A stretch of 30,082 bases of DNA from a virus (lineage: Duplodnaviria > Heunggongvirae > Uroviricota > Caudoviricetes). Of the stretch, positions 7,800 to 18,348 are shown piece by piece (position 1 is the first letter of the stretch; each line of letters begins with the position of its first letter). A program made the position numbers and the translations under genes. The stretch is taken from IMG/VR virus record IMGVR_UViG_2627853983_000001. One strand, written 5' to 3'. The notes below the pieces were generated by a model. That model did no database searches, was not told the DNA's origin, and saw only the letters and a list, made by a program, of their open reading frames with translations.

Positions 7800-8780
7800 T
7801 TATAACGTCACTCCGCCTTTTAGTGGATTCAGAGCGACGGCATTTTGCAGATAGTCAGGCGCAAGGTGCGCATAGGCCATCGTCTGCTGAATGCTCGCAT
7901 GTCCCAGAATCTGTTGCAGTGCGATTATATTGCCCCCATTCATCATGAAATGGCTTGCGAATGTATGCCGCAGGATGTGGGTTGCCTGATTGGGTGGTAT
8001 ATCAGGTTTCACTCTGCGTAAAATCCCGCAAAATTTCTCATAATCAACTTTGAATAATTTGGCGCTGGCCTCCTCTTTAACTTTTTTCTCCAGTTCCTCA
8101 GAAATCGGCACGGTTCGCTTTTTACCGTTTTTGGTTTTCAGGAAGGTAACCCTGCAATTTGTAATCTGTGCTGGTTTTAGCGTGGCAACTTCCGTCCATC
8201 TTCCTCCGGTGCTCAGACATAAAAGCGCGACAAGTAAGTCATCACCAGCCAAAACATTTAACAGTTTTTCGATTTCTGCTTTTTCCAGGAACGTCATTTC
8301 AGGGTTGGCCTCCGCCAGTGGCGGCAGTCCGTGAATTGGGTGTTGCCCGGAAAATTCATCCAATTGAATTAATTTTGTGAACATGCCGGATAATCGGTAC
8401 ATGTCACGGTTTATCGTTGCGGCACTGATACCATCACGTAGTCGCATGGAACGATAATCCATCAAAGCCCTTTTGCTCATCCTGCTCACTGGTATATCAC
8501 CTATGCCGCTGATGGTTTTGAGTAGATGATTAAACTCTTTTGTTCCATGCTCGTGGTTTTGCCCGTGATATTTCCACCAGATGTCCAGCAACTCACTCAA
8601 AGTCCGGCGGTCTGCTCGCTGGCCTCCCCATTCTTTCTGACTGGCATTGGCGATTGTGTATCGCTCAAATGCTAGTGCTTCAGCTTTTCTTTCGAATTTC
8701 CTGCGGATGCGTTTTCCGTCGCGACCGCGAGGTCTAATGTCCACTTCATAGCGACCATCATCGAGCTTCTTAATTGCCAT
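7800..8780 (-). CDS. int: Tyrosine integrase
   Basis: Start chosen at MAIKKLDDGRYEVDIRP... with GGAGG Shine-Dalgarno 8 nt upstream (tracked ORF begins 10 codons earlier). C-terminal HxLRHT...Y catalytic region; collinear with recalled P2 Int. Confidence 0.9.
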   Translation of the reverse strand: MAIKKLDDGRYEVDIRPRGRDGKRIRRKFERKAEALAFERYTIANASQKEWGGQRADRRTLSELLDIWWKYHGQNHEHGTKEFNHLLKTISGIGDIPVSRMSKRALMDYRSMRLRDGISAATINRDMYRLSGMFTKLIQLDEFSGQHPIHGLPPLAEANPEMTFLEKAEIEKLLNVLAGDDLLVALLCLSTGGRWTEVATLKPAQITNCRVTFLKTKNGKKRTVPISEELEKKVKEEASAKLFKVDYEKFCGILRRVKPDIPPNQATHILRHTFASHFMMNGGNIIALQQILGHASIQQTMAYAHLAPDYLQNAVALNPLKGGVTL

Positions 8781-8849
8781 AAGAAAGCCCTCCGGCGCTG
8801 TATTCACCATCTTGGTAGCAAATGGTGAAAATGTAATCTTTATATAGAG

Positions 8850-9143
8850 TTAGCCAATCCTTTTCGCGGAGTGGTTGGACTCTGTTGACTCTGGCCCAAT
8901 GTGCGCGAGAGCCGGTGCGATTTGTCCTGCGTCCGGCGCGGTTTTATCTGTCATAAGCCATAGAGCATATTTTTGGAATGTGGGATGCATAGTGATTTTT
9001 AGCAAAGCTGTGCCACCGGGTTCAAAGTTTCCTCCTTCATATTTTTTAAGTGTGCTTAGCGGTAACTCTATGATTTCACAGAATTTTGATTGGCTTAGCC
9101 CTTCAGCCTCACGCAAGGCCTTAATCTTTTCGCTTAATTTCAT
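8850..9143 (-). CDS. C: Immunity repressor C (P2 C-type HTH repressor)
   Basis: 97-aa ORF upstream of int on the same strand, with C-terminal ...GQIAPALAH... similar to recalled P2 C; divergent from cox. Confidence 0.85.
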   Translation of the reverse strand: MKLSEKIKALREAEGLSQSKFCEIIELPLSTLKKYEGGNFEPGGTALLKITMHPTFQKYALWLMTDKTAPDAGQIAPALAHIGPESTESNHSAKRIG

Positions 9144-9264: not shown

Positions 9265-9552
9265 ATGAGGGTACCATATATGGACGCTGAAAATTATGTG
9301 ATTCAGTATCCGCTTGATGCGGTTCATGTGGATAAATTTGCTGATTTATTAGGGAAGCCAAAGACAGCCGTCAGTGAAATGGTGAAGGCAAATAAATTAC
9401 CAATTATTGAATTGCGTGATCCTTGCAAACCGAAGGCTCGTGCCGGTGAAAAATGGGTTTTCATTCCTGAGTTTAATCGCGCTGTACGTGAGGCGTTTTA
9501 TAACCGACCGGTTGAACAGCGTGATGCATGGCTTTTGTGGATGGGGTTGTGA
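9265..9552 (+). CDS. cox: Cox (excisionase / transcriptional switch protein); alternative start at ATG 9280
   Basis: About 90-95 aa ORF divergent from C, similar in length and sequence character to P2 Cox (...LWMGL C-terminus). Confidence 0.85.
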   Translation: MRVPYMDAENYVIQYPLDAVHVDKFADLLGKPKTAVSEMVKANKLPIIELRDPCKPKARAGEKWVFIPEFNRAVREAFYNRPVEQRDAWLLWMGL

Positions 9553-11036: not shown

Positions 11037-11308
11037 GTATTCGTATTGAAATTGGCGAACGTTATGTCGTTACCAGTGACAGCTTTCAGTTTATTCTCCA
11101 CGAGAAAAAGAGAGCGGAAAGCGGTAAAAACGCCGGTCAGGAATGGCTGGCGGTGGTTGGTTATTACCCGAAATTAGGCCAGCTCGTTTCCGGCCTGATG
11201 CATCACGATATTCTGACCGGAAGCGCAAAATCTTTTGCTGATTTAAACGCGCAGGTTGAGCAACTCAGCAAGCGTTGTTCAGAGGCTTTTGGCTCATATG
11301 GCCGTTAA
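11033..11308 (+). CDS. Small early protein (P2 orf83-region)
   Basis: 91-aa ORF overlapping neighbours by 4 nt; operon context. Confidence 0.65.
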   Translation: MSIRIEIGERYVVTSDSFQFILHEKKRAESGKNAGQEWLAVVGYYPKLGQLVSGLMHHDILTGSAKSFADLNAQVEQLSKRCSEAFGSYGR

Positions 11309-13574
11309 AGCCTCCGGGCGTTTTGTCCCTCCGTCAGCATTTACCGCAGGCACCGGTAAGGCGTTTACCGGTGCTTATGCATGGAACGCGCCACGCGAGG
11401 CTGTCGGGCGCGAAAGACCTCTTACACGTGACGAGATGCGTCAGGTGCAAGGTGTTTTATCCACGATTAACCGCCTGCCTTACTTTTTGCGCTCGCTGTT
11501 TACTTCACGCTATGACTACATCCGGCGCAATAAAAGCCCGGTGCACGGGTTTTATTTCCTCACATCTACTTTTCAGCGTCGTTTATGGCCGCGCATTGAG
11601 CGTGTGAATCAGCGCCATGAAATGAACACCGACGCGTCGTTGCTGTTTCTGGCAGAGCGTGACCACTATGCGCGCCTGCCGGGAATGAATGACAAGGAGC
11701 TGAAAAAGTTTGCCGCCCGTATCTCATCGCAGCTTTTCATGATGTATGAGGAACTCTGCGATGCATGGGTGGATGCGCATGGTGAAAAAGAATCGCTGTT
11801 TACGGATGAGGCGCAGGCTCACCTGTATGGTCATGTTGCTGGCGCTGCACGTGCTTTCAATATTTCCCCGCTCTACTGGAAAAAATACCGTAAAGGACAG
11901 ATGACCACGAGGCAGGCATATTCTGCCATTGCCCGCCTGTTTAACGATGAGTGGTGGACTCATCAGCTTAAAGGCCAGCGTATGCGCTGGCATGAGGCGT
12001 TACTGATAGCTGTCGGGGAGGTCAATAAAGACCGTTCTCCTTATGCCAGTAAACACGCCATTCGTGATGTGCGTGCGCGCCGCCAGGCAAATCTGGAATT
12101 TCTTAAATCGTGTGACCTTGAAAACAGGGAAACCGGCGAGCGCATCGACCTTATCAGTAAGGTGATGGGCAGTATTTCTAATCCTGAAATTCGCCGGATG
12201 GAGCTGATGAACACCATTGCCGGTATTGAGCGTTACGCCGCCGCAGAGGGTGATGTGGGGATGTTTATCACGCTGACCGCGCCGTCAAAGTATCACCCGA
12301 CACGTCAGGTCGGAAAAGGCGAAAGTAAAACCGTTCAGCTTAATCACGGCTGGAACGATGAGGCATTTAATCCAAAGGATGCGCAGCGTTATCTCTGCCG
12401 TATCTGGAGCCTGATGCGCACGGCATTCAAGGATAATGATTTACAGGTCTACGGTTTGCGAGTCGTCGAGCCACACCACGACGGAACGCCGCACTGGCAT
12501 ATGATGCTTTTTTGTCATCCACGCCAGCGTAACCAGATTATCGAAATCATGCGTCGCTATGCGCTCAAAGAGGATGGCGACGAAAGAGGAGCCGCGCGAA
12601 ACCGTTTTCAGGCAAAACACCTTAACCGGGGCGGTGCTGCGGGATATATCGCGAAATACATTTCAAAAAACATCGACGGCTATGCACTGGATGGTCAGCT
12701 CGATAACGACACCGGCAGGCCGCTGAAAGACACTGCAGCGGCTGTTACCGCATGGGCGTCAACGTGGCGCATTCCGCAATTTAAAACGGTTGGCCTGCCG
12801 ACAATGGGGGCTTACCGTGAACTACGCAAATTGCCTCGCGGCGTCAGCATTGCTGATGAGTTTGACGAGCGCGTCGAGGCTGCACGCGCCGCCGCAGACA
12901 GTGGTGATTTTGCGCTGTATATCAGCGCGCAGGGTGGGGCAAATGTCCCGCGCGATTGTCAGACTGTCAGGGTCGCCCGTAGTCTGTCGGATGACGTTAA
13001 CGAGTACGAGGAAGAAGTCGAGAGAGTGGTCGGCATTTACGCGCCGCATCTCGGCGCGCGTCATATTCATATCACCAGAACGACGGACTGGCGCATTGTG
13101 CCGAAAGTTCCGGTCGTTGAGCCTTTGACTTTAAAAAGCGGCATCGCCGCGCCTCGGAGTCCTGTCAATAACTGTGGAAAGCTCACCGGTGGTGATACTT
13201 CGTTACCGGCTCCCACACCTTCTGAGCACGCCGCAGCAGTGCTTAATCTGGTTGATGACGATGTTATCGAATGGAATGACCCGGAGGTCGTGAGGGCGCT
13301 CAGGGGCGCATTAAAACACGACCGGAGAACGCCAAACCGTCAGCAAAGAAACGGAAGCCCGTTAAAACCGCATGAAATTGCACCATCGGCCAGACTGACC
13401 CGGTCGGAACGATTGCAAATTACCCGTATCCGCGTTGATCTCGCTCAGAACGGTATCAGGCCGCAACGATGGGAGCTTGAGGCGCTGGCGCGTGGCGCGA
13501 CCGTAAATTATGACGGGAAACCTTTCACTTATCAGGTCGCTGATGATTGGCCGGGATTTTTGTTACCCATTTGA
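11298..13574 (+). CDS. A: Rolling-circle replication initiator A (HUH endonuclease)
   Basis: Start set at MAVKASGRF... (tracked ORF starts 14 codons earlier). Contains HUH-type motif PHWHMMLF and tyrosine motif GYIAKYISK; collinear with recalled P2 A. Confidence 0.92.
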   Translation: MAVKASGRFVPPSAFTAGTGKAFTGAYAWNAPREAVGRERPLTRDEMRQVQGVLSTINRLPYFLRSLFTSRYDYIRRNKSPVHGFYFLTSTFQRRLWPRIERVNQRHEMNTDASLLFLAERDHYARLPGMNDKELKKFAARISSQLFMMYEELCDAWVDAHGEKESLFTDEAQAHLYGHVAGAARAFNISPLYWKKYRKGQMTTRQAYSAIARLFNDEWWTHQLKGQRMRWHEALLIAVGEVNKDRSPYASKHAIRDVRARRQANLEFLKSCDLENRETGERIDLISKVMGSISNPEIRRMELMNTIAGIERYAAAEGDVGMFITLTAPSKYHPTRQVGKGESKTVQLNHGWNDEAFNPKDAQRYLCRIWSLMRTAFKDNDLQVYGLRVVEPHHDGTPHWHMMLFCHPRQRNQIIEIMRRYALKEDGDERGAARNRFQAKHLNRGGAAGYIAKYISKNIDGYALDGQLDNDTGRPLKDTAAAVTAWASTWRIPQFKTVGLPTMGAYRELRKLPRGVSIADEFDERVEAARAAADSGDFALYISAQGGANVPRDCQTVRVARSLSDDVNEYEEEVERVVGIYAPHLGARHIHITRTTDWRIVPKVPVVEPLTLKSGIAAPRSPVNNCGKLTGGDTSLPAPTPSEHAAAVLNLVDDDVIEWNDPEVVRALRGALKHDRRTPNRQQRNGSPLKPHEIAPSARLTRSERLQITRIRVDLAQNGIRPQRWELEALARGATVNYDGKPFTYQVADDWPGFLLPI

Positions 13575-13832
13575 GTAAAAATACAGCGTGATTTTATATG
13601 TCTTTGAATGGATTATGCGAAACACCTCTAAGGTAGATGAGGAGCAATAGCGTGTTGAATCAGAAGGCTAAATTGTATTGAATCGTTAGCATGTAATTGA
13701 AGGCAGCTATTTGATTCGAGTCATAAAAGAGCATCTATTTCGGTTAATAAAACCATTGCGAGTGACTTTATGTCGAAGCATAATTCATCTCGAGCGAAGT
13801 CTTGCTAGTCTTTCATCGGATTGATGACGGGC

Positions 13833-13869
13833 GCAAAAAAACCACCCTGGCAGGTGGTTTTTTTGTTTG
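13833..13869. terminator. Bidirectional rho-independent terminator (A-run, ACCACC-loop-GGTGGT stem, T-run)
   Basis: AAAAAAACCACCCTGGCAGGTGGTTTTTTTG; it can terminate the early operon from the left and the minus-strand small ORF from the right. Confidence 0.65.
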
Positions 13870-13876
13870 AAGCATA

Positions 13877-13990
13877 CTAAAGAAAAATACTTACATGGAT
13901 ATTACTGACGTTTACTGACAAACCACTCGGACTACCATATGGATAGCCAAAGAGGGCCAGAACGAGAATGCAGTAATAGCACTTCTTCAT
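13877..13990 (-). CDS. Candidate small protein, 37 aa (MKKCYYCILVLALFGYPYGSPSGLSVNVSNIHVSIFL), hydrophobic N-terminal half
   Basis: Not in the ORF track because it is under 60 aa. AGGAGG Shine-Dalgarno 4 nt before the ATG; stop codon 7 nt from the bidirectional terminator. Coding status unproven. Confidence 0.35.
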   Translation of the reverse strand: MKKCYYCILVLALFGYPYGSPSGLSVNVSNIHVSIFL

Positions 13991-14646
13991 ATCGCCTCCT
14001 GTAAGCAGAGGGCAATTTCCGCCGATATATGCGCTTCTAAGGCGGAGTGACTATTGAGCGAAGTCTTGCCCTGAAATAATGCTCTGTTTAAACGCAAAGT
14101 GATCTGGCATATCACCGAACAGAGGACCTGAACAACACAACATATAGTATGTCGTTGTTTCTGGTTGCATTTTATGTTGTGTAATACTGGTTTTGCATCA
14201 AGGATGTTTGAGCTTTTTTTGATATAGCTCAAAGTAAAAAGCAGAGACTACGGATGATAAGGTCTTGAAAGCAATGTAAATTTTTTAAAGTTGTGAGTGG
14301 CTAGAAATGCACAGTTTCAATATGGCGGATTTAAACAAGTAATTAAAAATAGCGACATAAATTCCAATAAAATCATTAAGTTGCGTTTTCTGTGGAAACT
14401 TCGGTGACTCTGAAATTTTCTTTTAGTATCGCTGAGGTTTAACAACTCGCTGCGCAAGTAGTTAGTGTTTTTTTAACTCAATATTCTGATTTATAAGGTT
14501 TTTTATAAAACGTGGGCTGGTTGCGCGTATTCATCTCGTGTTATCAGCAAAGATAAGCTCTATATGCAGAACTGAATGCATATATGATGTCGAAAATGTT
14601 ATGGGAAAACGTGGATTAGTGTTATAGTAATGGCTGAAAAACAGCC

Positions 14647-14675
14647 TTGACATAAAATAACAGCTGTGATATGGC
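14647..14675 (+). promoter_or_regulatory. Sigma70-type promoter for the ImmA-like gene (TTGACA, 17-bp spacer, TGaTATGGC extended -10)
   Basis: Perfect -35 hexamer at 14647..14652, TGn plus TATGGC at 14667..14675, about 35 nt upstream of the AGGAGG Shine-Dalgarno and ATG 14712. Confidence 0.5.
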
Positions 14676-14711
14676 TGTGCATACTTAACTTTTTTAACGT
14701 AGGAGGCAACC

Positions 14712-15197
14712 ATGAGCTATGCAGCTAAAAAACTGCTTGACCGCTATTGGGATCGCCGACTACCTGTCGATCCGTTTAAGCTTGCTAAAGCGTGGGGTGC
14801 TCGTGTTGAAGCACTTGAGGAATCGGCTTATAACAACGATGGGTTAAGCGGTCTGGCTGTCATCAAAAAGGGTGTCCATAGGATTTATTTTGATTCTAGT
14901 GAACATTCTAATCGTCAACGTTTTACTGTTGCACACGAGTTAGGTCATCATGTGCTGGGGCATACCCAGGACGGAGAGTACCATCGGGATAATGTCGGGA
15001 ATTATTCAACAGGTGCTCGTGATTACCGTGAGGTTGAAGCAAACAAGTTTGCTGCTGAGTTGTTAATGCCTGAGTCTGCTATACGTCAATTGGTATCCAG
15101 AGAAGGTATTGATAGCACTTTGAGATTAGCAAGCATCTTTAATGTATCAGAAGCCGCTATGCATTGGCGCTTAAAGAGCTTAGGAATGGCTTATTAA
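14712..15197 (+). CDS. ImmA/IrrE-family zinc metallopeptidase (COG2856 / DUF955-like), HEXXH motif
   Basis: 161 aa with FTVAHELGHHVLGH (HEXXH) and downstream EANKFAAELLMPE, the pattern of ImmA/IrrE peptidases. Strong Shine-Dalgarno GTAGGAGG. No adjacent HTH partner ORF. Confidence 0.75.
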   Translation: MSYAAKKLLDRYWDRRLPVDPFKLAKAWGARVEALEESAYNNDGLSGLAVIKKGVHRIYFDSSEHSNRQRFTVAHELGHHVLGHTQDGEYHRDNVGNYSTGARDYREVEANKFAAELLMPESAIRQLVSREGIDSTLRLASIFNVSEAAMHWRLKSLGMAY

Positions 15198-15222
15198 TTA
15201 GCCTTTAACTTTTAACCTGTTT

Positions 15223-15263
15223 AAAATCACCTTTACGTTTGTACATGTAAGGGTGATTTTTTT
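15223..15263 (+). terminator. Terminator-like hairpin (AAAATCACCTTTAC / GTAAGGGTGATTTT) with T-run, overlapping the RBS of the next gene
   Basis: 13-14 bp stem with one mismatch, loop GTTTGTACAT, followed by TTTTTTT ending 1 nt before ATG 15264. Confidence 0.55.
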
Positions 15264-15863
15264 ATGGCTGATATTGATTTATCTGGACAGTCCCCAGAGC
15301 AAGGAACCACTCCTAAGGGCGATTTAGATCCTGATATCCTTATAAGGCGAGATAGACGGGATGGTATAGAGCGTAGAAGTATGCGATTAGTGCTCTCTGC
15401 CGTTGTGCTTTGTTTTGCTTGTACATTTCTATGGCAGGGGCTTAACTTTGCTTTGGCTGTTGGAAATGGCTTGCTGGAAGCGAAAAGCAGTATTGCCGCA
15501 GCGATAACACAAAAAGTAGATACACAAACTTGTGTTTCAGCAGAAAAATGTTCTGCTTTATCTTCGGATCCGAAGATGGCTGATGAGAGGATAACACCAT
15601 CTTCAGACACTAATAAAGTTAGAAAATCTATTTCTGGTTTATCCACCGATTGGTTATCGGCCAGTTCTCTAATAGCTATTGTTGCATTCATCCTTGGTGT
15701 GGGTTTAACTTTGCTTTTGACTCTTCTTAAATCAGCATTTCAACACCCGACAGATAAAGACTTTAGAACAAAGTCGACATCTAATACTATTGAGTTGGCC
15801 ACGCCAATCAGTGAATTAATAATTGGTGTTCTGAATATAATTAAAGACAAACTATCTAAGTAA
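15264..15863 (+). CDS. Predicted two-pass membrane protein of unknown function
   Basis: 199-aa ORF with two hydrophobic segments (LVLSAVVLCFACTFLWQGLNFALAV and LIAIVAFILGVGLTLLLTLL) flanking a Ser/Thr-rich loop; convergent terminator downstream. The overlapping minus-strand ORF 15233..15691 is the alternative reading. Confidence 0.55.
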   Translation: MADIDLSGQSPEQGTTPKGDLDPDILIRRDRRDGIERRSMRLVLSAVVLCFACTFLWQGLNFALAVGNGLLEAKSSIAAAITQKVDTQTCVSAEKCSALSSDPKMADERITPSSDTNKVRKSISGLSTDWLSASSLIAIVAFILGVGLTLLLTLLKSAFQHPTDKDFRTKSTSNTIELATPISELIIGVLNIIKDKLSK

Positions 15864-15904
15864 AGCATTAGTTGTGATTTTTTATTGGTTTTAGTGATAA
15901 TACA

Positions 15905-15938
15905 TCTCCAGTACTTATTGTTACTGGAGAGTATTTTT
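15905..15938. terminator. Convergent terminator between the membrane-protein gene and the 313-aa minus-strand gene
   Basis: Stem TCTCCAGTA / TACTGGAGA, loop CTTATTGT, followed by GTATTTTT; 15 nt from the minus-strand gene stop. Confidence 0.6.
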
Positions 15939-15945
15939 AGTCGTT

Positions 15946-16887
15946 TTATATTTTTAATGTTAGTGAATGATATTCACGAGAGTTCACGTTCGATGTGATG
16001 TAATCGGGGGCGTTAACACCAAGAATCGCAACGAGTAATCGGCAAATTAAAGCCTGCATTTGTTGTAATATGTCATCTCCATATTGATAATTGTTAATAG
16101 TGGTAAAGCCAAGTGGTTGACCATGAAACATAGCTTCATGAAAGTTTTCATTGCGGATGTTTGTAATGTTTTTTTTGCCTGTAACCCATGATGGTCGTGG
16201 TATTCCATAAGTTTTGCAGATCCACTTCAAGCGCCTGGAGTGATTTAGAGTCTTTTCTGTACACTTGTTCTTTTCTGCCCATGTTAAAGCAAAGCAACTA
16301 TCCAGTGCCATGTAAAGATACTGGAATTTTTCGAAGCTAAGGTATTGTGGGTTTTGGGATAAAAATAGTGCATGCACTATTGCTGCTATATTTATTGGTG
16401 CGTGTTTGGTTTTTGTCTCGCTAGACATGTATTTGAGTGCTAATTCTATAACCTCTTTTTCAGAGCACTTGACCAGAATAAAGTCAGTTAATTTGCTGGG
16501 TTTTATTGGGGTTGCGTCTAAAAAACCGGCATCAGTAGTTGTTAATCTTATCCCTTTGAAAAAAGACAGACACCACACAGCAAAATTGAGAGTTTCTAGT
16601 GAAGATGTATTTTTTAATTTTAGTGAGTGTGTTTTGGGTAAGCCAAATACTCGTTGGCTAAAAGGCATTGTGGATATGCCTCCATTGAGGTTATATACTT
16701 CTTGGTTTCCTGGGTATATCCAACCGTTAATAACATTTCTGTGATTGTTTATAAGATTTGTTTTTTCCGCCAGACCGGGTAAAGTAAGTAAAGAAAAATC
16801 ATCAGTTTCAACGTTAACTTCTACTGGATAGTATCCAAACTCAGCTTCAATATCATTGGATTGCTGTTCGTCAACTTTACCTTGCAT
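15946..16887 (-). CDS. Hypothetical 313-aa protein with HEPN-like RNxxxH motif (RNENFH, residues 245..250); candidate abortive-infection RNase
   Basis: Long ORF in the AT-rich island with GGAG Shine-Dalgarno 6 nt upstream. The RNENFH motif was verified on the DNA (minus strand of 16138..16155). The fold assignment is inferred from the motif only. Confidence 0.7.
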   Translation of the reverse strand: MQGKVDEQQSNDIEAEFGYYPVEVNVETDDFSLLTLPGLAEKTNLINNHRNVINGWIYPGNQEVYNLNGGISTMPFSQRVFGLPKTHSLKLKNTSSLETLNFAVWCLSFFKGIRLTTTDAGFLDATPIKPSKLTDFILVKCSEKEVIELALKYMSSETKTKHAPINIAAIVHALFLSQNPQYLSFEKFQYLYMALDSCFALTWAEKNKCTEKTLNHSRRLKWICKTYGIPRPSWVTGKKNITNIRNENFHEAMFHGQPLGFTTINNYQYGDDILQQMQALICRLLVAILGVNAPDYITSNVNSREYHSLTLKI

Positions 16888-16905
16888 ACATTGCTCCGGT
16901 CAAAA

Positions 16906-16933
16906 ATAGGCTCGATAATTCTCGTAAGCCTAT
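16906..16933 (-). promoter_or_regulatory. Leader hairpin plus U5 tract (terminator/attenuator-like) immediately upstream of the RBS of the 313-aa gene
   Basis: On the minus strand: ATAGGCTTACGA-GAATTA-TCGAGCCTAT followed by TTTTT, then GACCGGAGCAATGT-ATG. Confidence 0.45.
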
Positions 16934-17124
16934 CATGTTCGCAAAGTATCCATACCTGTGGATTTTGTAAATTTAAGTTGATTTGTCATTAAATAAGCCG
17001 TTGCATGCAACAAGTGAATGTTTTTGCATGCGTCGGGGATGTCCGTTCAGGCTGCGTGCGGTCAGGACTGGTGCGGATCCATAGTATCTATGCAACTGCA
17101 TTAAAACCGCCCCATGAAGCGGGC

Positions 17125-17143
17125 GGGCGAGGCGGGGAAAGCA
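17125..17143. other. cos: cos site (19-nt cohesive end sequence GGCGAGGCGGGGAAAGCAC)
   Basis: Exact match to the P2 cohesive-end sequence as I recall it, in the expected position just beyond the portal gene Q. Confidence 0.75.
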
Positions 17144-17284
17144 CTGCGCGCTGGCGGTGGTGCTGATTTTATTTTTTCAGCGTCTGAGCGCGTCGTGATG
17201 GCGTTTAGATTGTGCGCCGGGGCGTTGGTGTGTCTGCGGGCTGTTTTGTGCGGTGGTGAGTGTGTGAGGGCGTGATGACGGGCT

Positions 17285-17308
17285 GTAAAAAAGCCGCCCG
17301 CAGGCGGC
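17285..17308 (-). terminator. Rho-independent terminator downstream of Q (minus strand)
   Basis: GCCGCC-CGCA-GGCGGC stem followed on the minus strand by TTTTTT. Confidence 0.6.
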
Positions 17309-17313
17309 GATGT

Positions 17314-18348
17314 TCAGCCGTTGTCAGTGTCCAGTGAGTAGTTTTTAAAGCGGATGACCTCCTGACCGAGCCAGCCGTTTATCTCGCGGATCCTGTCCTG
17401 TAACGGGATAAGCTCATTGCGGACAAAGACCTTTGCCACTTTCTCAATATCACCCAGCGACCCGACGTTCTCCGGCTTGCCGCCCATCAACTGAAAGGGG
17501 ATGCGGTGCGCGTCCAGCAGGTCTGCGGCACTGGCTTTTTTGATATTAAAAAAATCGTCCTTCGTCGCCACTTCACTGAGCGGGATAATTTTAATGCCGT
17601 CGGCTTTTCCCTGTGGGGCATAGAGAAACAGGTTTTTAAAGTTGTTGCGGCCTTTTGACTTAACCATGTTTTCGCGGAGCATTTCGATATCGTTGCGATC
17701 CTGCACGGCATCAGTGACGTACATGATGTATCCGGCATGAGCGCCGTTTTCGTAATACTTGCGGCGGAACAGCGTGGCTGATTCATTCAGCCAGGCAGAG
17801 TTAAGGGCGCTGAGATATTCCGGCAGACCGTACAGCTCCTGATTAATATCCGGCTCCAGCAGGTGAAACACGGAGCCGGGCGCGAAAGGTGTCGGCTCAT
17901 GGAAGGACGGCACCCACCAGTAAACATCCTCTTCCACGCCACGGCGGGTATATTTTGCCGGTGAGGTTTCCAGTCTGATGACCTTACCGGTGGTGCTGTA
18001 ACGCTTTTCCAGAAACGCATTACCGAACACCAGAAAATCCAGCACAAAGCGGCTGAAATCCTGCTGGGAAAGCCACGGATGCGGGATAAATGTCGAGGCC
18101 AGAATATTGCGTTTGACGTAAATCGGTGAGCTGTGATGCACGGCAGCACGCAGGCTTTTTGCCAGACCGGTAAAGCTGACCGGTGGCTCATACCATCTGC
18201 CGTTACTGATGCACTCGACGTAATCCAGAATGTCACGGCGGTCGAGTACCGGCACCGGCTCACCAAAGGTGAATGCCTCCATTTTCGGGGCGCTGGCGGT
18301 CATTTTTTTTGCCGCAGGTTGCGGTGTTTTCCCTTTTTTCTTGCTCAT
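17314..18348 (-). CDS. Q: Portal protein
   Basis: 344-aa ORF; P2 Q length and position next to cos. Confidence 0.92.
   Translation of the reverse strand: MSKKKGKTPQPAAKKMTASAPKMEAFTFGEPVPVLDRRDILDYVECISNGRWYEPPVSFTGLAKSLRAAVHHSSPIYVKRNILASTFIPHPWLSQQDFSRFVLDFLVFGNAFLEKRYSTTGKVIRLETSPAKYTRRGVEEDVYWWVPSFHEPTPFAPGSVFHLLEPDINQELYGLPEYLSALNSAWLNESATLFRRKYYENGAHAGYIMYVTDAVQDRNDIEMLRENMVKSKGRNNFKNLFLYAPQGKADGIKIIPLSEVATKDDFFNIKKASAADLLDAHRIPFQLMGGKPENVGSLGDIEKVAKVFVRNELIPLQDRIREINGWLGQEVIRFKNYSLDTDNG

What the first reader, a model, noticed from the sequence alone, without database searches (positions are those of the whole stretch)
14647..15197. Orphan ImmA/IrrE-type HEXXH metallopeptidase with its own promoter and no cognate HTH repressor gene
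Seen in sequence: 161-aa ORF with HELGHHVLGH and the downstream glutamate-containing EANKFAAELLMPE segment typical of ImmA/IrrE (COG2856) peptidases. It is preceded by a TTGACA-17-TGaTATGGC promoter and an AGGAGG Shine-Dalgarno. Established knowledge: these peptidases normally sit next to an XRE-type HTH repressor that they cleave (ImmR/ImmA, IrrE/DdrO) or form two-gene toxin-antitoxin-like pairs. Here the upstream 1.1 kb has no HTH-sized ORF and the phage repressor C is P2-type and 5 kb away. Inference: the peptidase either acts on a non-adjacent or host target, or works with the downstream membrane protein as a new two-gene module.
Basis: partly seen in the sequence, partly recalled or inferred. 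Interest (0 to 1): 0.7.

Follow-up and report, generated by a model that had tools for sequence, protein, structure and literature searches.

The report
Peptidase plus membrane-toxin pair in prophage
The "orphan" zinc peptidase is real, but it is the first gene of a conserved two-gene unit with the membrane protein downstream, a relative of a tested phage toxin-antitoxin defence pair (RosmerTA of Gordonia phage Kita), sitting in the known defence-gene hotspot of a P2-like prophage.

Summary
ORF 14712-15197 is an intact M78 (ImmA/IrrE) zinc peptidase with no adjacent HTH gene.

It is not a loner. It forms one unit, bracketed by terminators, with the 199-aa two-transmembrane protein at 15264-15863. 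The unit is cargo in the hotspot between genes A and Q of a P2-like prophage.

The peptidase-plus-small-2-TM pair recurs widely:
- other P2-like phages
- Mu-like and lambdoid prophages
- genomic islands
- 91 of 175 surveyed loci

The peptidase is a full-length homologue (38% identity) of RmrA(D25) of Gordonia phage Kita. That antitoxin's overlapping partner, RmrT(D5), is a small 2-TM protein shown experimentally to depolarise membranes and to give narrow anti-phage defence.

A close variant of this very locus was already catalogued and cloned as "Peptidase + TM" (Rousset 2022, Table S2B). It is listed there among the additional tested systems, not the validated ones.

Two details are new here:
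- a conserved D-L-S-x-G motif in the partner's cytoplasmic N-terminal tail
- a conserved terminator hairpin, then a U-run, then the AUG, directly before the membrane-protein gene

Verdict: a new member of a known kind (Rosmer-type toxin-antitoxin/abortive-infection module). Its function is inferred, not shown.

The parts
13833..13866 (.). Bidirectional intrinsic terminator (A7-CCACC...GGTGG-T7). It insulates the peptidase unit from gene A and marks the upstream boundary; it belongs to the neighbouring small-ORF element.
   Evidence: Folds at -31.9 kcal/mol within the 85-nt + strand stretch 13786-13870, which also holds two upstream hairpins, and at -19.1 kcal/mol on the - strand. No shuffle folds as well. 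100% conserved in four prophage variants.
14620..14628 (+). Candidate extended -10 promoter element, TGtTATAGT.
   Evidence: Read from the sequence. It lies in a block that is identical in P2_DC1. Not tested.
14647..14675 (+).
   Evidence: The sequence is present. The -10 matches 3 of 6 positions and the consensus scan did not call it. Partly conserved in P2_DC1.
14701..14706 (+). Shine-Dalgarno AGGAGG, 5 nt before the ATG.
   Evidence: conserved in P2_DC1.
14712..15197 (+). Short ImmA/IrrE-type M78 zinc peptidase, 161 aa. It has the peptidase core plus a C-terminal helical HTH-like subdomain, with no GAF domain and no fused N-terminal HTH. HEXXH is at residues 75-79 (14934-14948); the third zinc ligand E107 is at 15030-15032.
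   Evidence: Pfam E 3.8e-21. Invariant catalytic residues. Fold matches to CapP and IrrE. 38% identical over residues 4-160 to Kita RmrA(D25).
15223..15263 (+). Intergenic attenuator: a 16-bp hairpin (15223-15260) whose 3' arm holds the SD-like AAGGGUGA (15249-15256), then U7 (15257-15263) running straight into the AUG of the next gene.
   Evidence: The 86-nt stretch 15190-15275 that holds the hairpin folds at -25.1 kcal/mol, z -6.1; the 72-nt spacer from the ImmA stop codon to the AUG folds at -18.4 kcal/mol. The same hairpin-U6-8-AUG layout, with different compensating stem sequences, occurs in the P2_DC1, L108, Salmonella, Aeromonas and Klebsiella loci.
15264..15863 (+). Partner gene, a 199-aa inner-membrane protein. 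It has a cytoplasmic acidic N-tail with D5-L-S-G8 (15276-15287), the basic stretch RRDRRDGIERRSMR, TM1 (about residues 38-62), a variable periplasmic loop with two Cys, TM2 (about 126-154, AFILGVGLTLLLTLLK) and a C-terminal amphipathic helix. It is the predicted toxin/effector.
   Evidence: No Pfam or PADLOC hit. PHROG 8096, function unknown. Homologues lie downstream of ImmA in all related loci. AlphaFold2 topology. The motif is enriched: 29 of 78 partners against 1.1% background.
15905..15930 (.). Bidirectional terminator between the membrane-protein gene and the convergent ORF313. It marks the downstream boundary of the unit.
   Evidence: Scan hit on both strands. Folds at -17.6 and -17.0 kcal/mol, z about -6.

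Best explanation
ORF 14712-15197 and ORF 15264-15863 form one two-gene operon. It is a Rosmer-type toxin-antitoxin / abortive-infection module carried as swappable cargo in the A-Q (TO) hotspot of a P2-like prophage.

Proposed working:
1. The 2-TM protein is the dangerous component, a membrane-depolarising or pore-forming effector.
2. The short ImmA-type zinc peptidase is its cognate neutraliser or gatekeeper.
3. In enterobacterial copies the peptidase is made in excess. An intrinsic terminator sits between the genes, and its 3' arm also buries the ribosome-binding site of the membrane-protein gene.
4. The peptidase most likely acts directly on the partner's cytoplasmic N-terminal tail, which carries the conserved D-L-S-x-G motif, by binding or cleaving it.
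5. Infection by particular phages upsets this control. The membrane effector then collapses the membrane potential before the invader completes its cycle.

What is shown here: the peptidase family and its intact active site, the operon anatomy, the conserved pairing, and the homology to the validated Kita antitoxin.

What is inferred: toxicity of this partner, which protein is the substrate, whether cleavage activates or inactivates, and the trigger.
For: - Family and active site.
- Location: between replication gene A (Pfam Phage_GPA) and the portal gene Q. This is the P2 defence hotspot of Rousset 2022.
- Conserved pairing in unrelated contexts: P2_DC1 (88% / 56% identity); Salmonella islands; Aeromonas Mu-like prophages between mor and the lysis genes; P. 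aeruginosa prophages directly after the S24 repressor; a Klebsiella prophage end; Cupriavidus; Pseudoalteromonas phage ACA1 and Burkholderia phage Carl1.
- Survey of 175 loci: 91 have a small protein with at least 2 TM helices directly downstream, often overlapping.
- Both genes always occur together in 50 E. coli genomes.
- Kita RmrA(D25) (YP_009301393) is 38% identical over the full length (E 2e-29). Its overlapping partner RmrT(D5) (YP_009301394) has an acidic tail plus 2 TM helices. It is toxic, depolarises E. coli membranes, and gives defence against the phages Bas54 and Bas59.
- Conserved attenuator before the partner gene.
- Conserved N-tail motif.
- Short ImmA homologues pair with swapped partners (Beta_protein, an SbcB-like exonuclease). 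This is the hub behaviour described for ImmA-type antitoxins.
Against: - A close variant (pFR104, E. coli TA280, proteins identical to P2_DC1) was cloned with its native promoter. It is listed only among 'additional tested systems', not among the validated ones, after challenge with 8 coliphages.
- The paper singles out only the lysogen of a different isolate, AC1, as protecting its host, so no protection by the P2_DC1 lysogen is on record.
- The membrane partner has no detectable sequence similarity to Kita RmrT(D5) (hhalign probability 0.4%) or to any PADLOC RmrT model.
- The PADLOC RmrA models match only the peptidase core.
- No toxicity, cleavage or expression data exist for this pair.
- In another ImmA-containing system (PD-lambda-2) the peptidase protein itself was the toxic part.
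Confidence: 0.62

Rival explanations
1. Trans-acting anti-repressor. The peptidase cleaves an XRE-type repressor encoded elsewhere, either the prophage's own C protein or the repressor of another resident or invading phage. It would then control induction or interfere with competitors, with the membrane protein as an accessory.
For: All characterised family members (ImmA, IrrE, CapP) cleave HTH repressors. The C repressor of this prophage is XRE-type by Pfam (HTH_3, E 2.3e-5). The unit sits where phage 186 carries its anti-repressor tum, and the annotators of Pseudoalteromonas phage ACA1 called the homologue an antirepressor.
Against: The pair occurs with very different immunity systems: S24 self-cleaving repressors in Pseudomonas, Mu-like prophages, and islands without a phage repressor. 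The only constant neighbour is the 2-TM protein. No HTH gene is adjacent in 21 inspected loci. There is no LexA box at the promoter. The GAF domain that forms the ssDNA-sensing groove of IrrE and CapP is absent.
Confidence: 0.1
2. Roles reversed. The peptidase is the toxic effector, cutting an essential host or phage protein as the Lit protease of prophage e14 cuts EF-Tu. The membrane protein is then its inhibitor, anchor or sensor, holding the peptidase through the D-L-S-x-G tail until the membrane is disturbed.
For: In PD-lambda-2 the HTH-peptidase component alone is toxic. The catalytic site is strictly conserved. The partner's tail motif could be a docking or pseudo-substrate site.
Against: The validated homologue Kita gp32 is the antitoxin and its TM partner the toxin. 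The terminator and buried ribosome-binding site before the TM gene predict less TM protein than peptidase, the wrong ratio for an inhibitor.
Confidence: 0.1
3. Not abortive infection. The pair is either a membrane-level superinfection-exclusion or lysogenic-conversion function, with the TM protein blocking DNA entry or altering the envelope and the peptidase maturing it, or a purely selfish addiction cassette that stabilises the hotspot cargo.
For: It sits in moron-like positions that are expressed in lysogens, next to the repressor in Pseudomonas prophages as rexAB and sieB are in lambda (my own knowledge). No defence was recorded on the 8-phage panel.
Against: The homologous Kita pair behaves as a toxin-antitoxin system with narrow defence. 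The attenuated expression of the TM gene fits a toxin better than a constitutively needed exclusion protein.
Confidence: 0.12

Closest known systems
RosmerTA of Gordonia phage Kita: RmrA(D25) gp32 / RmrT(D5) gp33 (Ernits et al. 2023, PMC10440598)
   Same: The short M78 peptidase has no fused HTH and is 38% identical over the full length. The peptidase gene comes first, and the partner lies immediately downstream. The partner is a small protein with an acidic N-tail and two C-terminal TM helices. The pair is carried by a temperate phage.
   Different: The partner proteins share no detectable sequence similarity. The window partner is longer (199 against 119 aa) and has a roughly 60-residue periplasmic loop and a C-terminal helix. 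The genes are separated by a terminator hairpin here, whereas they overlap by 4 nt in Kita. The host phylum differs. No experiment exists for the window pair.
Canonical RosmerTA (Millman et al. 2022; PADLOC RmrA models of 357-400 profile positions)
   Same: A two-gene toxin-antitoxin-like defence system in which an ImmA/IrrE Zn-peptidase protein is the antitoxin and the toxins are diverse. The PADLOC RmrA models hit the window peptidase down to E 6e-17.
   Different: The PADLOC RmrA models are 357-400 positions long, and the window protein matches only about positions 141-304 of them. RmrA-node proteins often carry a small N-terminal HTH; the window protein has none. No RmrT model matches the partner, so annotation tools would not call the system.
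'Peptidase + TM' P2-hotspot locus, pFR104 from E. coli TA280 / phage P2_DC1 (Rousset et al. 2022, Tables S2B and S5)
   Same: The same module in the same hotspot. This exact peptidase (WP_000119270) is listed 23 times in their P2 table. The cloned variant is 88% / 56% identical.
   Different: The cloned allele lacks ORF313. Its partner was annotated from an internal Met; the long form with the D-L-S-G tail is conserved. It is listed among the additional tested systems rather than the validated ones.
ImmA/ImmR (ICEBs1), IrrE/DdrO (Deinococcus), CapP/CapH (CBASS regulators)
   Same: The same peptidase family and fold. The shared logic is that the peptidase acts on the product of the neighbouring gene. 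The length is like that of ImmA (about 170 aa, my own knowledge).
   Different: There is no adjacent HTH repressor. There is no GAF domain or ssDNA groove, and no cysteine switch, since the protein has no Cys at all. The neighbour is a membrane protein.
Type III toxin-antitoxin loci such as ToxIN (my own knowledge)
   Same: An intrinsic terminator between the antitoxin and the toxin gene sets an antitoxin excess.
   Different: The antitoxin here is a protein enzyme, not an RNA. The terminator also buries the toxin's ribosome-binding site.

Membership tests
Peptidase family M78 (ImmA/IrrE, COG2856) | Match to the family profile above the curated threshold | tested here: met
   PF06114, 75.6 bits against a cut-off of 22, E 3.8e-21.
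Peptidase family M78 (ImmA/IrrE, COG2856) | HEXXH plus a downstream Glu as third zinc ligand, conserved among homologues | tested here: met
   H75, E76, H79 and E107 are invariant in 24 sequences. They align with CapP H97/E98/H101/E128 as described.
Peptidase family M78 (ImmA/IrrE, COG2856) | Fold of the peptidase plus helical subdomain | tested here: met
   AlphaFold2 pLDDT 86.8. Best PDB matches are CapP 7t5t and IrrE 3dti, TM-score 0.62.
Protease-repressor pairs (ImmA/ImmR, IrrE/DdrO, CapP/CapH) | Adjacent gene for an XRE-type HTH repressor that is the substrate | tested here: not met
   No HTH ORF in 13575-17313, and none next to homologues in 21 loci. The nearest HTH protein is C, 5.5 kb away.
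Protease-repressor pairs (IrrE/CapP subtype) | C-terminal GAF domain forming the ssDNA-binding groove | tested here: not met
   The protein ends at residue 161. The targets are 240-278 residues long and only their N-terminal part aligns. The groove is described.
Protease-repressor pairs | Signal-dependent site-specific cleavage of the partner | not testable with these tools
   Needs biochemistry.
RosmerTA | Two adjacent co-oriented genes, one encoding an ImmA/IrrE Zn-peptidase protein | tested here: met
   14712-15197 and 15264-15863, bracketed by terminators.
RosmerTA | Peptidase component homologous to a validated RmrA | tested here: met
   38% identity over residues 4-160 to Kita RmrA(D25), YP_009301393, E 2e-29. 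PADLOC RmrA hits reach E 6e-17 but cover only the peptidase core.
RosmerTA | N-terminal HTH fused to the peptidase, as proteins of the ImmA/RmrA node often have | tested here: not met
   161 aa with no N-terminal extension; it aligns to about positions 141-304 of the RmrA profiles. Proteins of that node often carry a small N-terminal HTH. The validated Kita RmrA (178 aa) lacks one too.
RosmerTA | Partner matches a known RmrT toxin family | tested here: not met
   No PADLOC hit. hhalign against Kita RmrT(D5) gives probability 0.4%. Only the architecture is shared: acidic tail plus 2 TM helices.
RosmerTA | Partner is toxic and is neutralised by the peptidase protein | not testable with these tools
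   Indirect only: the attenuator predicts a low toxin-to-peptidase ratio.
RosmerTA | Protects against phage | not testable with these tools
   Literature only. The variant pFR104 is listed among the additional tested systems, not the validated ones, after an 8-phage challenge. The Kita system protects against only 2 BASEL phages.
P2-like phage hotspot cargo (TO region) | Variable genes between replication gene A and portal gene Q | tested here: met
   A at 11256-13574 (Phage_GPA). Q at 17314-18348 (annotated portal protein). AT-rich island of 33-45% GC against 51-59% in the flanks. Alternative cargo sits at the same site in other genomes.

The most novel reading that the evidence does not exclude
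The peptidase's substrate is not a repressor but the cytoplasmic N-terminal tail of its own membrane-protein partner, recognised through the conserved D-L-S-x-G motif. This would be the first M78/ImmA-family protease shown to gate a membrane pore by proteolysis. The terminator placed exactly before the toxin's AUG would make toxin synthesis depend on read-through, so phage antitermination or a transcription takeover could be the trigger.
Probability: 0.22. Interest if true: 0.65.

Novelty: new member of a known kind. Interest (0 to 1): 0.4.

Why it matters
If the model holds, this is an E. coli / P2 example of a short ImmA-type peptidase controlling a membrane toxin. It would be genetically tractable, unlike most relatives. 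How Rosmer-type antitoxins neutralise their toxins is unknown, and all characterised ImmA/IrrE/CapP enzymes cut HTH repressors. The conserved D-L-S-x-G tail and the terminator-AUG junction give two concrete, mutable handles for testing direct proteolytic control and expression gating. The result also explains an unannotated cargo class present in about 1% of complete E. coli genomes and in many prophages of Proteobacteria. Annotation tools currently miss it because the partner matches no model.

Tried and rejected
- Scan of genome contigs with the membrane-protein alignment: 26 pattern matches, none confirmed by tblastn. I used the peptidase alignment instead.
- Rfam on 13400-17400: only sub-threshold hits.
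- PADLOC, Pfam and NCBIfam for the membrane protein: nothing.
- LexA box near the promoter: none. SOS control like that of 186 tum is therefore not supported.
- The upstream 1.1 kb as part of the module: rejected. It is not conserved next to homologues outside P2-like phages. Its conserved 600-bp core also occurs with other cargo or alone.
- ORF313 as a third component: rejected. It occurs without the peptidase in P2-EC67 and other phages, and the pair occurs without it in TA280 / P2_DC1.
- IS insertion in strain CUWW10 as a natural knock-out: it lies outside both genes, so it is uninformative.
- Sequence homology between the window partner and Kita RmrT(D5): none.
- Literature searches for a named system of this composition, or for the protein accessions in paper text: none. 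The 2026 P2/P4 hotspot paper does not mention peptidases.

Full report
**Setting.** The window is a P2-like prophage. Its genes include integrase (7800-8810, -), the C repressor (8850-9143, -; Pfam HTH_3), Cox (9265-9552), replication gene A (11256-13574; Phage_GPA), portal Q (17314-18348, -), terminase and capsid genes. The 3.7 kb between A and Q is AT-rich, 33-45% GC against 51-59% in the flanks. This is the variable 'TO' region, which Rousset et al. 2022 defined as the P2 defence hotspot. The whole 3.7-kb cargo is found at 99.5% identity or more in 46 complete E. coli genomes and in Salmonella phage MET_P1_103_31.

**The observation.** It is correct.
- ORF 14712-15197 encodes 161 aa and matches Peptidase_M78 far above threshold.
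- The HEXXH motif (H75, E76, H79), the third ligand E107, and H84, R92 and N111 are invariant in 24 homologues.
- The AlphaFold2 model is confident (pLDDT 86.8). It superposes on the peptidase-plus-HTH part of CapP and IrrE/PprI. The C-terminal GAF domain, which forms their ssDNA groove, is missing.
- AGGAGG precedes the ATG by 5 nt.
- The promoter letters are present, but the -10 (TATGGC) is weak, the scan does not call it, and it is only partly conserved. A fully conserved TGtTATAGT at 14620-14628 is an alternative.
- An own promoter is required in any case, because a strong bidirectional terminator (13833-13866) lies between gene A and the peptidase gene.
- No HTH-like ORF exists anywhere in the cargo.

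**What the peptidase belongs to.** The only neighbour that stays constant is the gene immediately downstream, 15264-15863. It encodes 199 aa and has no family match apart from PHROG 8096, of unknown function.

Homologous pairs occur in many settings:
- P2_DC1 / E. coli TA280 (88% and 56% identity)
- Salmonella diarizonae islands
- Aeromonas Mu-like prophages, between mor and the lysis genes
- P. aeruginosa prophages, directly after the S24 repressor
- the end of a Klebsiella prophage
- Cupriavidus
- Pseudoalteromonas phage ACA1 and Burkholderia phage Carl1, next to cos

Scanning species-representative genomes and IMG/VR with the peptidase alignment brought the survey to 175 loci. Of these, 91 carry a protein of 270 aa or fewer with at least two predicted TM helices directly downstream, often overlapping by 1-14 nt. 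Another 11 carry a one-TM protein. Sixteen carry a 300-500 aa soluble partner instead, including Beta_protein (PF14350) and an SbcB-like exonuclease. Among loci at least 45% identical to the window peptidase and with sequence downstream, all but one (L023) have the TM partner. In complete E. coli genomes the pair is present in 50 of 5426, always with both genes.

**The partner.** The alignment and the model (pLDDT 63.6) give this layout:
- a disordered acidic N-tail
- a basic juxtamembrane stretch (RRDRRDGIERRSMR)
- TM1
- a variable loop with two conserved Cys
- TM2 (AFILGVGLTLLLTLLK, nearly invariant)
- a C-terminal amphipathic helix

The charge distribution puts both ends in the cytoplasm (inference from the positive-inside rule). 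The family that sequence can detect is small: 57 clusters among 1.84 billion representatives.

Even where partners cannot be aligned, the N-tail keeps a short motif, D-[LFI]-[SA]-x0-1-G. Examples are DIDLSG here, DDLSQG in Pseudomonas and DLSAG in Betaproteobacteria. It is present in 29 of 78 distinct partners, mostly at residues 3-16, against 1.1% of control ORFs.

**A conserved expression gate.** The 66-nt spacer between the genes folds into a 16-bp hairpin followed by U7 and then directly the AUG. The 86-nt stretch around it folds at -25.1 kcal/mol, z -6.1, and the spacer from the ImmA stop codon to the AUG at -18.4 kcal/mol. The SD-like GGUGA lies in the 3' arm. The same hairpin-U6-8-AUG arrangement occurs in the P2_DC1, L108, Salmonella, Aeromonas and Klebsiella loci, with different, compensating stem sequences. 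This predicts termination after the peptidase gene and poor translation of read-through RNA. The result would be much less membrane protein than peptidase, as expected if the membrane protein is harmful. A second bidirectional terminator (15905-15930) closes the unit.

**Link to a tested system.** tblastn against cultured phages finds Gordonia phage Kita gp32 and its relatives. Kita gp32 (178 aa, no extra domain) is 38% identical to the window peptidase over residues 4-160 (E 2e-29). The overlapping gp33 (119 aa) has an acidic tail (EDDSGANFDE) and two TM helices. These are exactly RmrA(D25) and RmrT(D5) of Ernits et al. 2023 (accessions confirmed). In that study the toxin stops growth and rapidly depolarises and permeabilises E. 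coli membranes. The peptidase protein partly neutralises it. The pair protects against only two BASEL phages. The same study describes the ImmA domain as a hub antitoxin with many swapped toxins, which matches the partner swapping seen here. The window partner itself is not detectably homologous to RmrT(D5).

**Prior record of this locus.** Rousset et al. 2022 list this exact peptidase (WP_000119270) 23 times among P2 hotspot loci. They cloned the TA280 allele as pFR104, 'Peptidase + TM'. It appears in Table S2B ('additional tested systems'), not among the validated systems, after challenge with eight coliphages. Their isolate P2_DC1 carries the same allele. The paper singles out only the lysogen of another isolate, AC1, as protective. 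Given the narrow range of the Kita system, this absence of a recorded effect is weak evidence against a defence role.

**Most likely mechanism.** The unit is a Rosmer-type toxin-antitoxin / abortive-infection module. The 2-TM protein is the membrane effector. The short ImmA-type peptidase is made in excess and keeps it harmless. It probably does this by acting on the cytoplasmic D-L-S-x-G tail, since in every characterised member of the family the peptidase acts on the product of the neighbouring gene. Some infections would break this control. The anatomy and the homology are shown. Toxicity, the substrate, the direction of control and the trigger are inferred.

**Rivals:**
- trans cleavage of an XRE repressor such as C, weakened by the variety of immunity systems next to the pair and by the missing LexA box
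- reversed roles, as in PD-lambda-2, weakened by the Kita data and by the attenuator
- exclusion, conversion or addiction without abortive infection

**Other content of the cargo.**
- 13675-14275 is a separate, highly conserved, unannotated element that looks like a type I toxin-antitoxin locus.
- ORF313 (15946-16887, -) is a separate single-gene candidate with an invariant HEPN R-N-x3-H motif.

**Verdict.** The thing is a new member of a known kind, already catalogued but functionally untested beyond one small screen. It is moderately interesting, mainly for the two new handles: the tail motif and the terminator-AUG gate.

Noticed in passing
window 13675-14275: An unannotated 600-bp element directly after gene A. 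It is 97% identical in P2_DC1, more conserved than the peptidase gene, and is present in 150 complete E. coli genomes, with other hotspot cargo or alone. On the minus strand it has a 37-aa hydrophobic ORF (13990-13877, MKKCYYCILVLALFGYPYG...) with an AGGAGG SD. A promoter-like site on the + strand (13756-13784) leads to a roughly 75-nt transcript that ends at the shared bidirectional terminator. The 5' part of that transcript (GAGCGAAGTCTTGC, 13793-13806) is repeated at about 14055-14068, so it is complementary to the 5' UTR of the small-ORF mRNA. Both copies are conserved in four variants. It looks like a type I toxin-antitoxin locus. There is no Rfam match.
   Followed up: partly
window 15946-16887 (-): ORF313 (PHROG 5937, no Pfam or PADLOC hit) is a separate cargo gene. 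It is also found without the peptidase, for example in P2-EC67. Its family is large: 728 database proteins at E <= 0.001. It has an invariant R244-N-x3-H249 motif, the HEPN Rx4H signature, and one source names a homologue 'Apea-like HEPN domain-containing protein'. It is a candidate single-gene RNase defence.
   Followed up: partly
L167, L169, L171, L172, L180, L052, L053, L088; L041-L043, L046, L060, L062: More distant short ImmA homologues are followed not by a TM protein but by a roughly 340-370 aa Beta_protein (PF14350, E 7e-38; the family of the beta protein of satellite P4) or by a roughly 450-470 aa SbcB-like exonuclease (RNase_T plus Exonuc_X-T_C). The short peptidase thus behaves as a hub with swapped partners.
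   Followed up: partly
L004/L005/L006 6250-6679: In Salmonella diarizonae islands the peptidase-TM pair is followed by a conserved 142-aa gene with no Pfam match. It is a possible third component in that lineage and is absent from the window.
   Followed up: no
window 8850-9143 (-): The P2-type C repressor of this prophage passes the Pfam HTH_3 (XRE) threshold (24.7 bits against 23). In family terms it could therefore be a substrate type for ImmA-like peptidases. This is worth one in vitro test.
   Followed up: no
L001 4690-5312 / Rousset 2022 Table S2B: The partner gene of the P2_DC1 / TA280 allele is annotated from an internal Met (159-161 aa). The conserved 207-aa form starts 48 codons upstream, at MAEIDLSG. 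Public annotation therefore omits the tail that carries the conserved motif.
   Followed up: yes
L182 3951-5159 (E. coli CUWW10): An IS4-like ISVsa5 element has inserted between ORF313 and the portal gene in one strain. All three cargo genes remain intact.
   Followed up: yes
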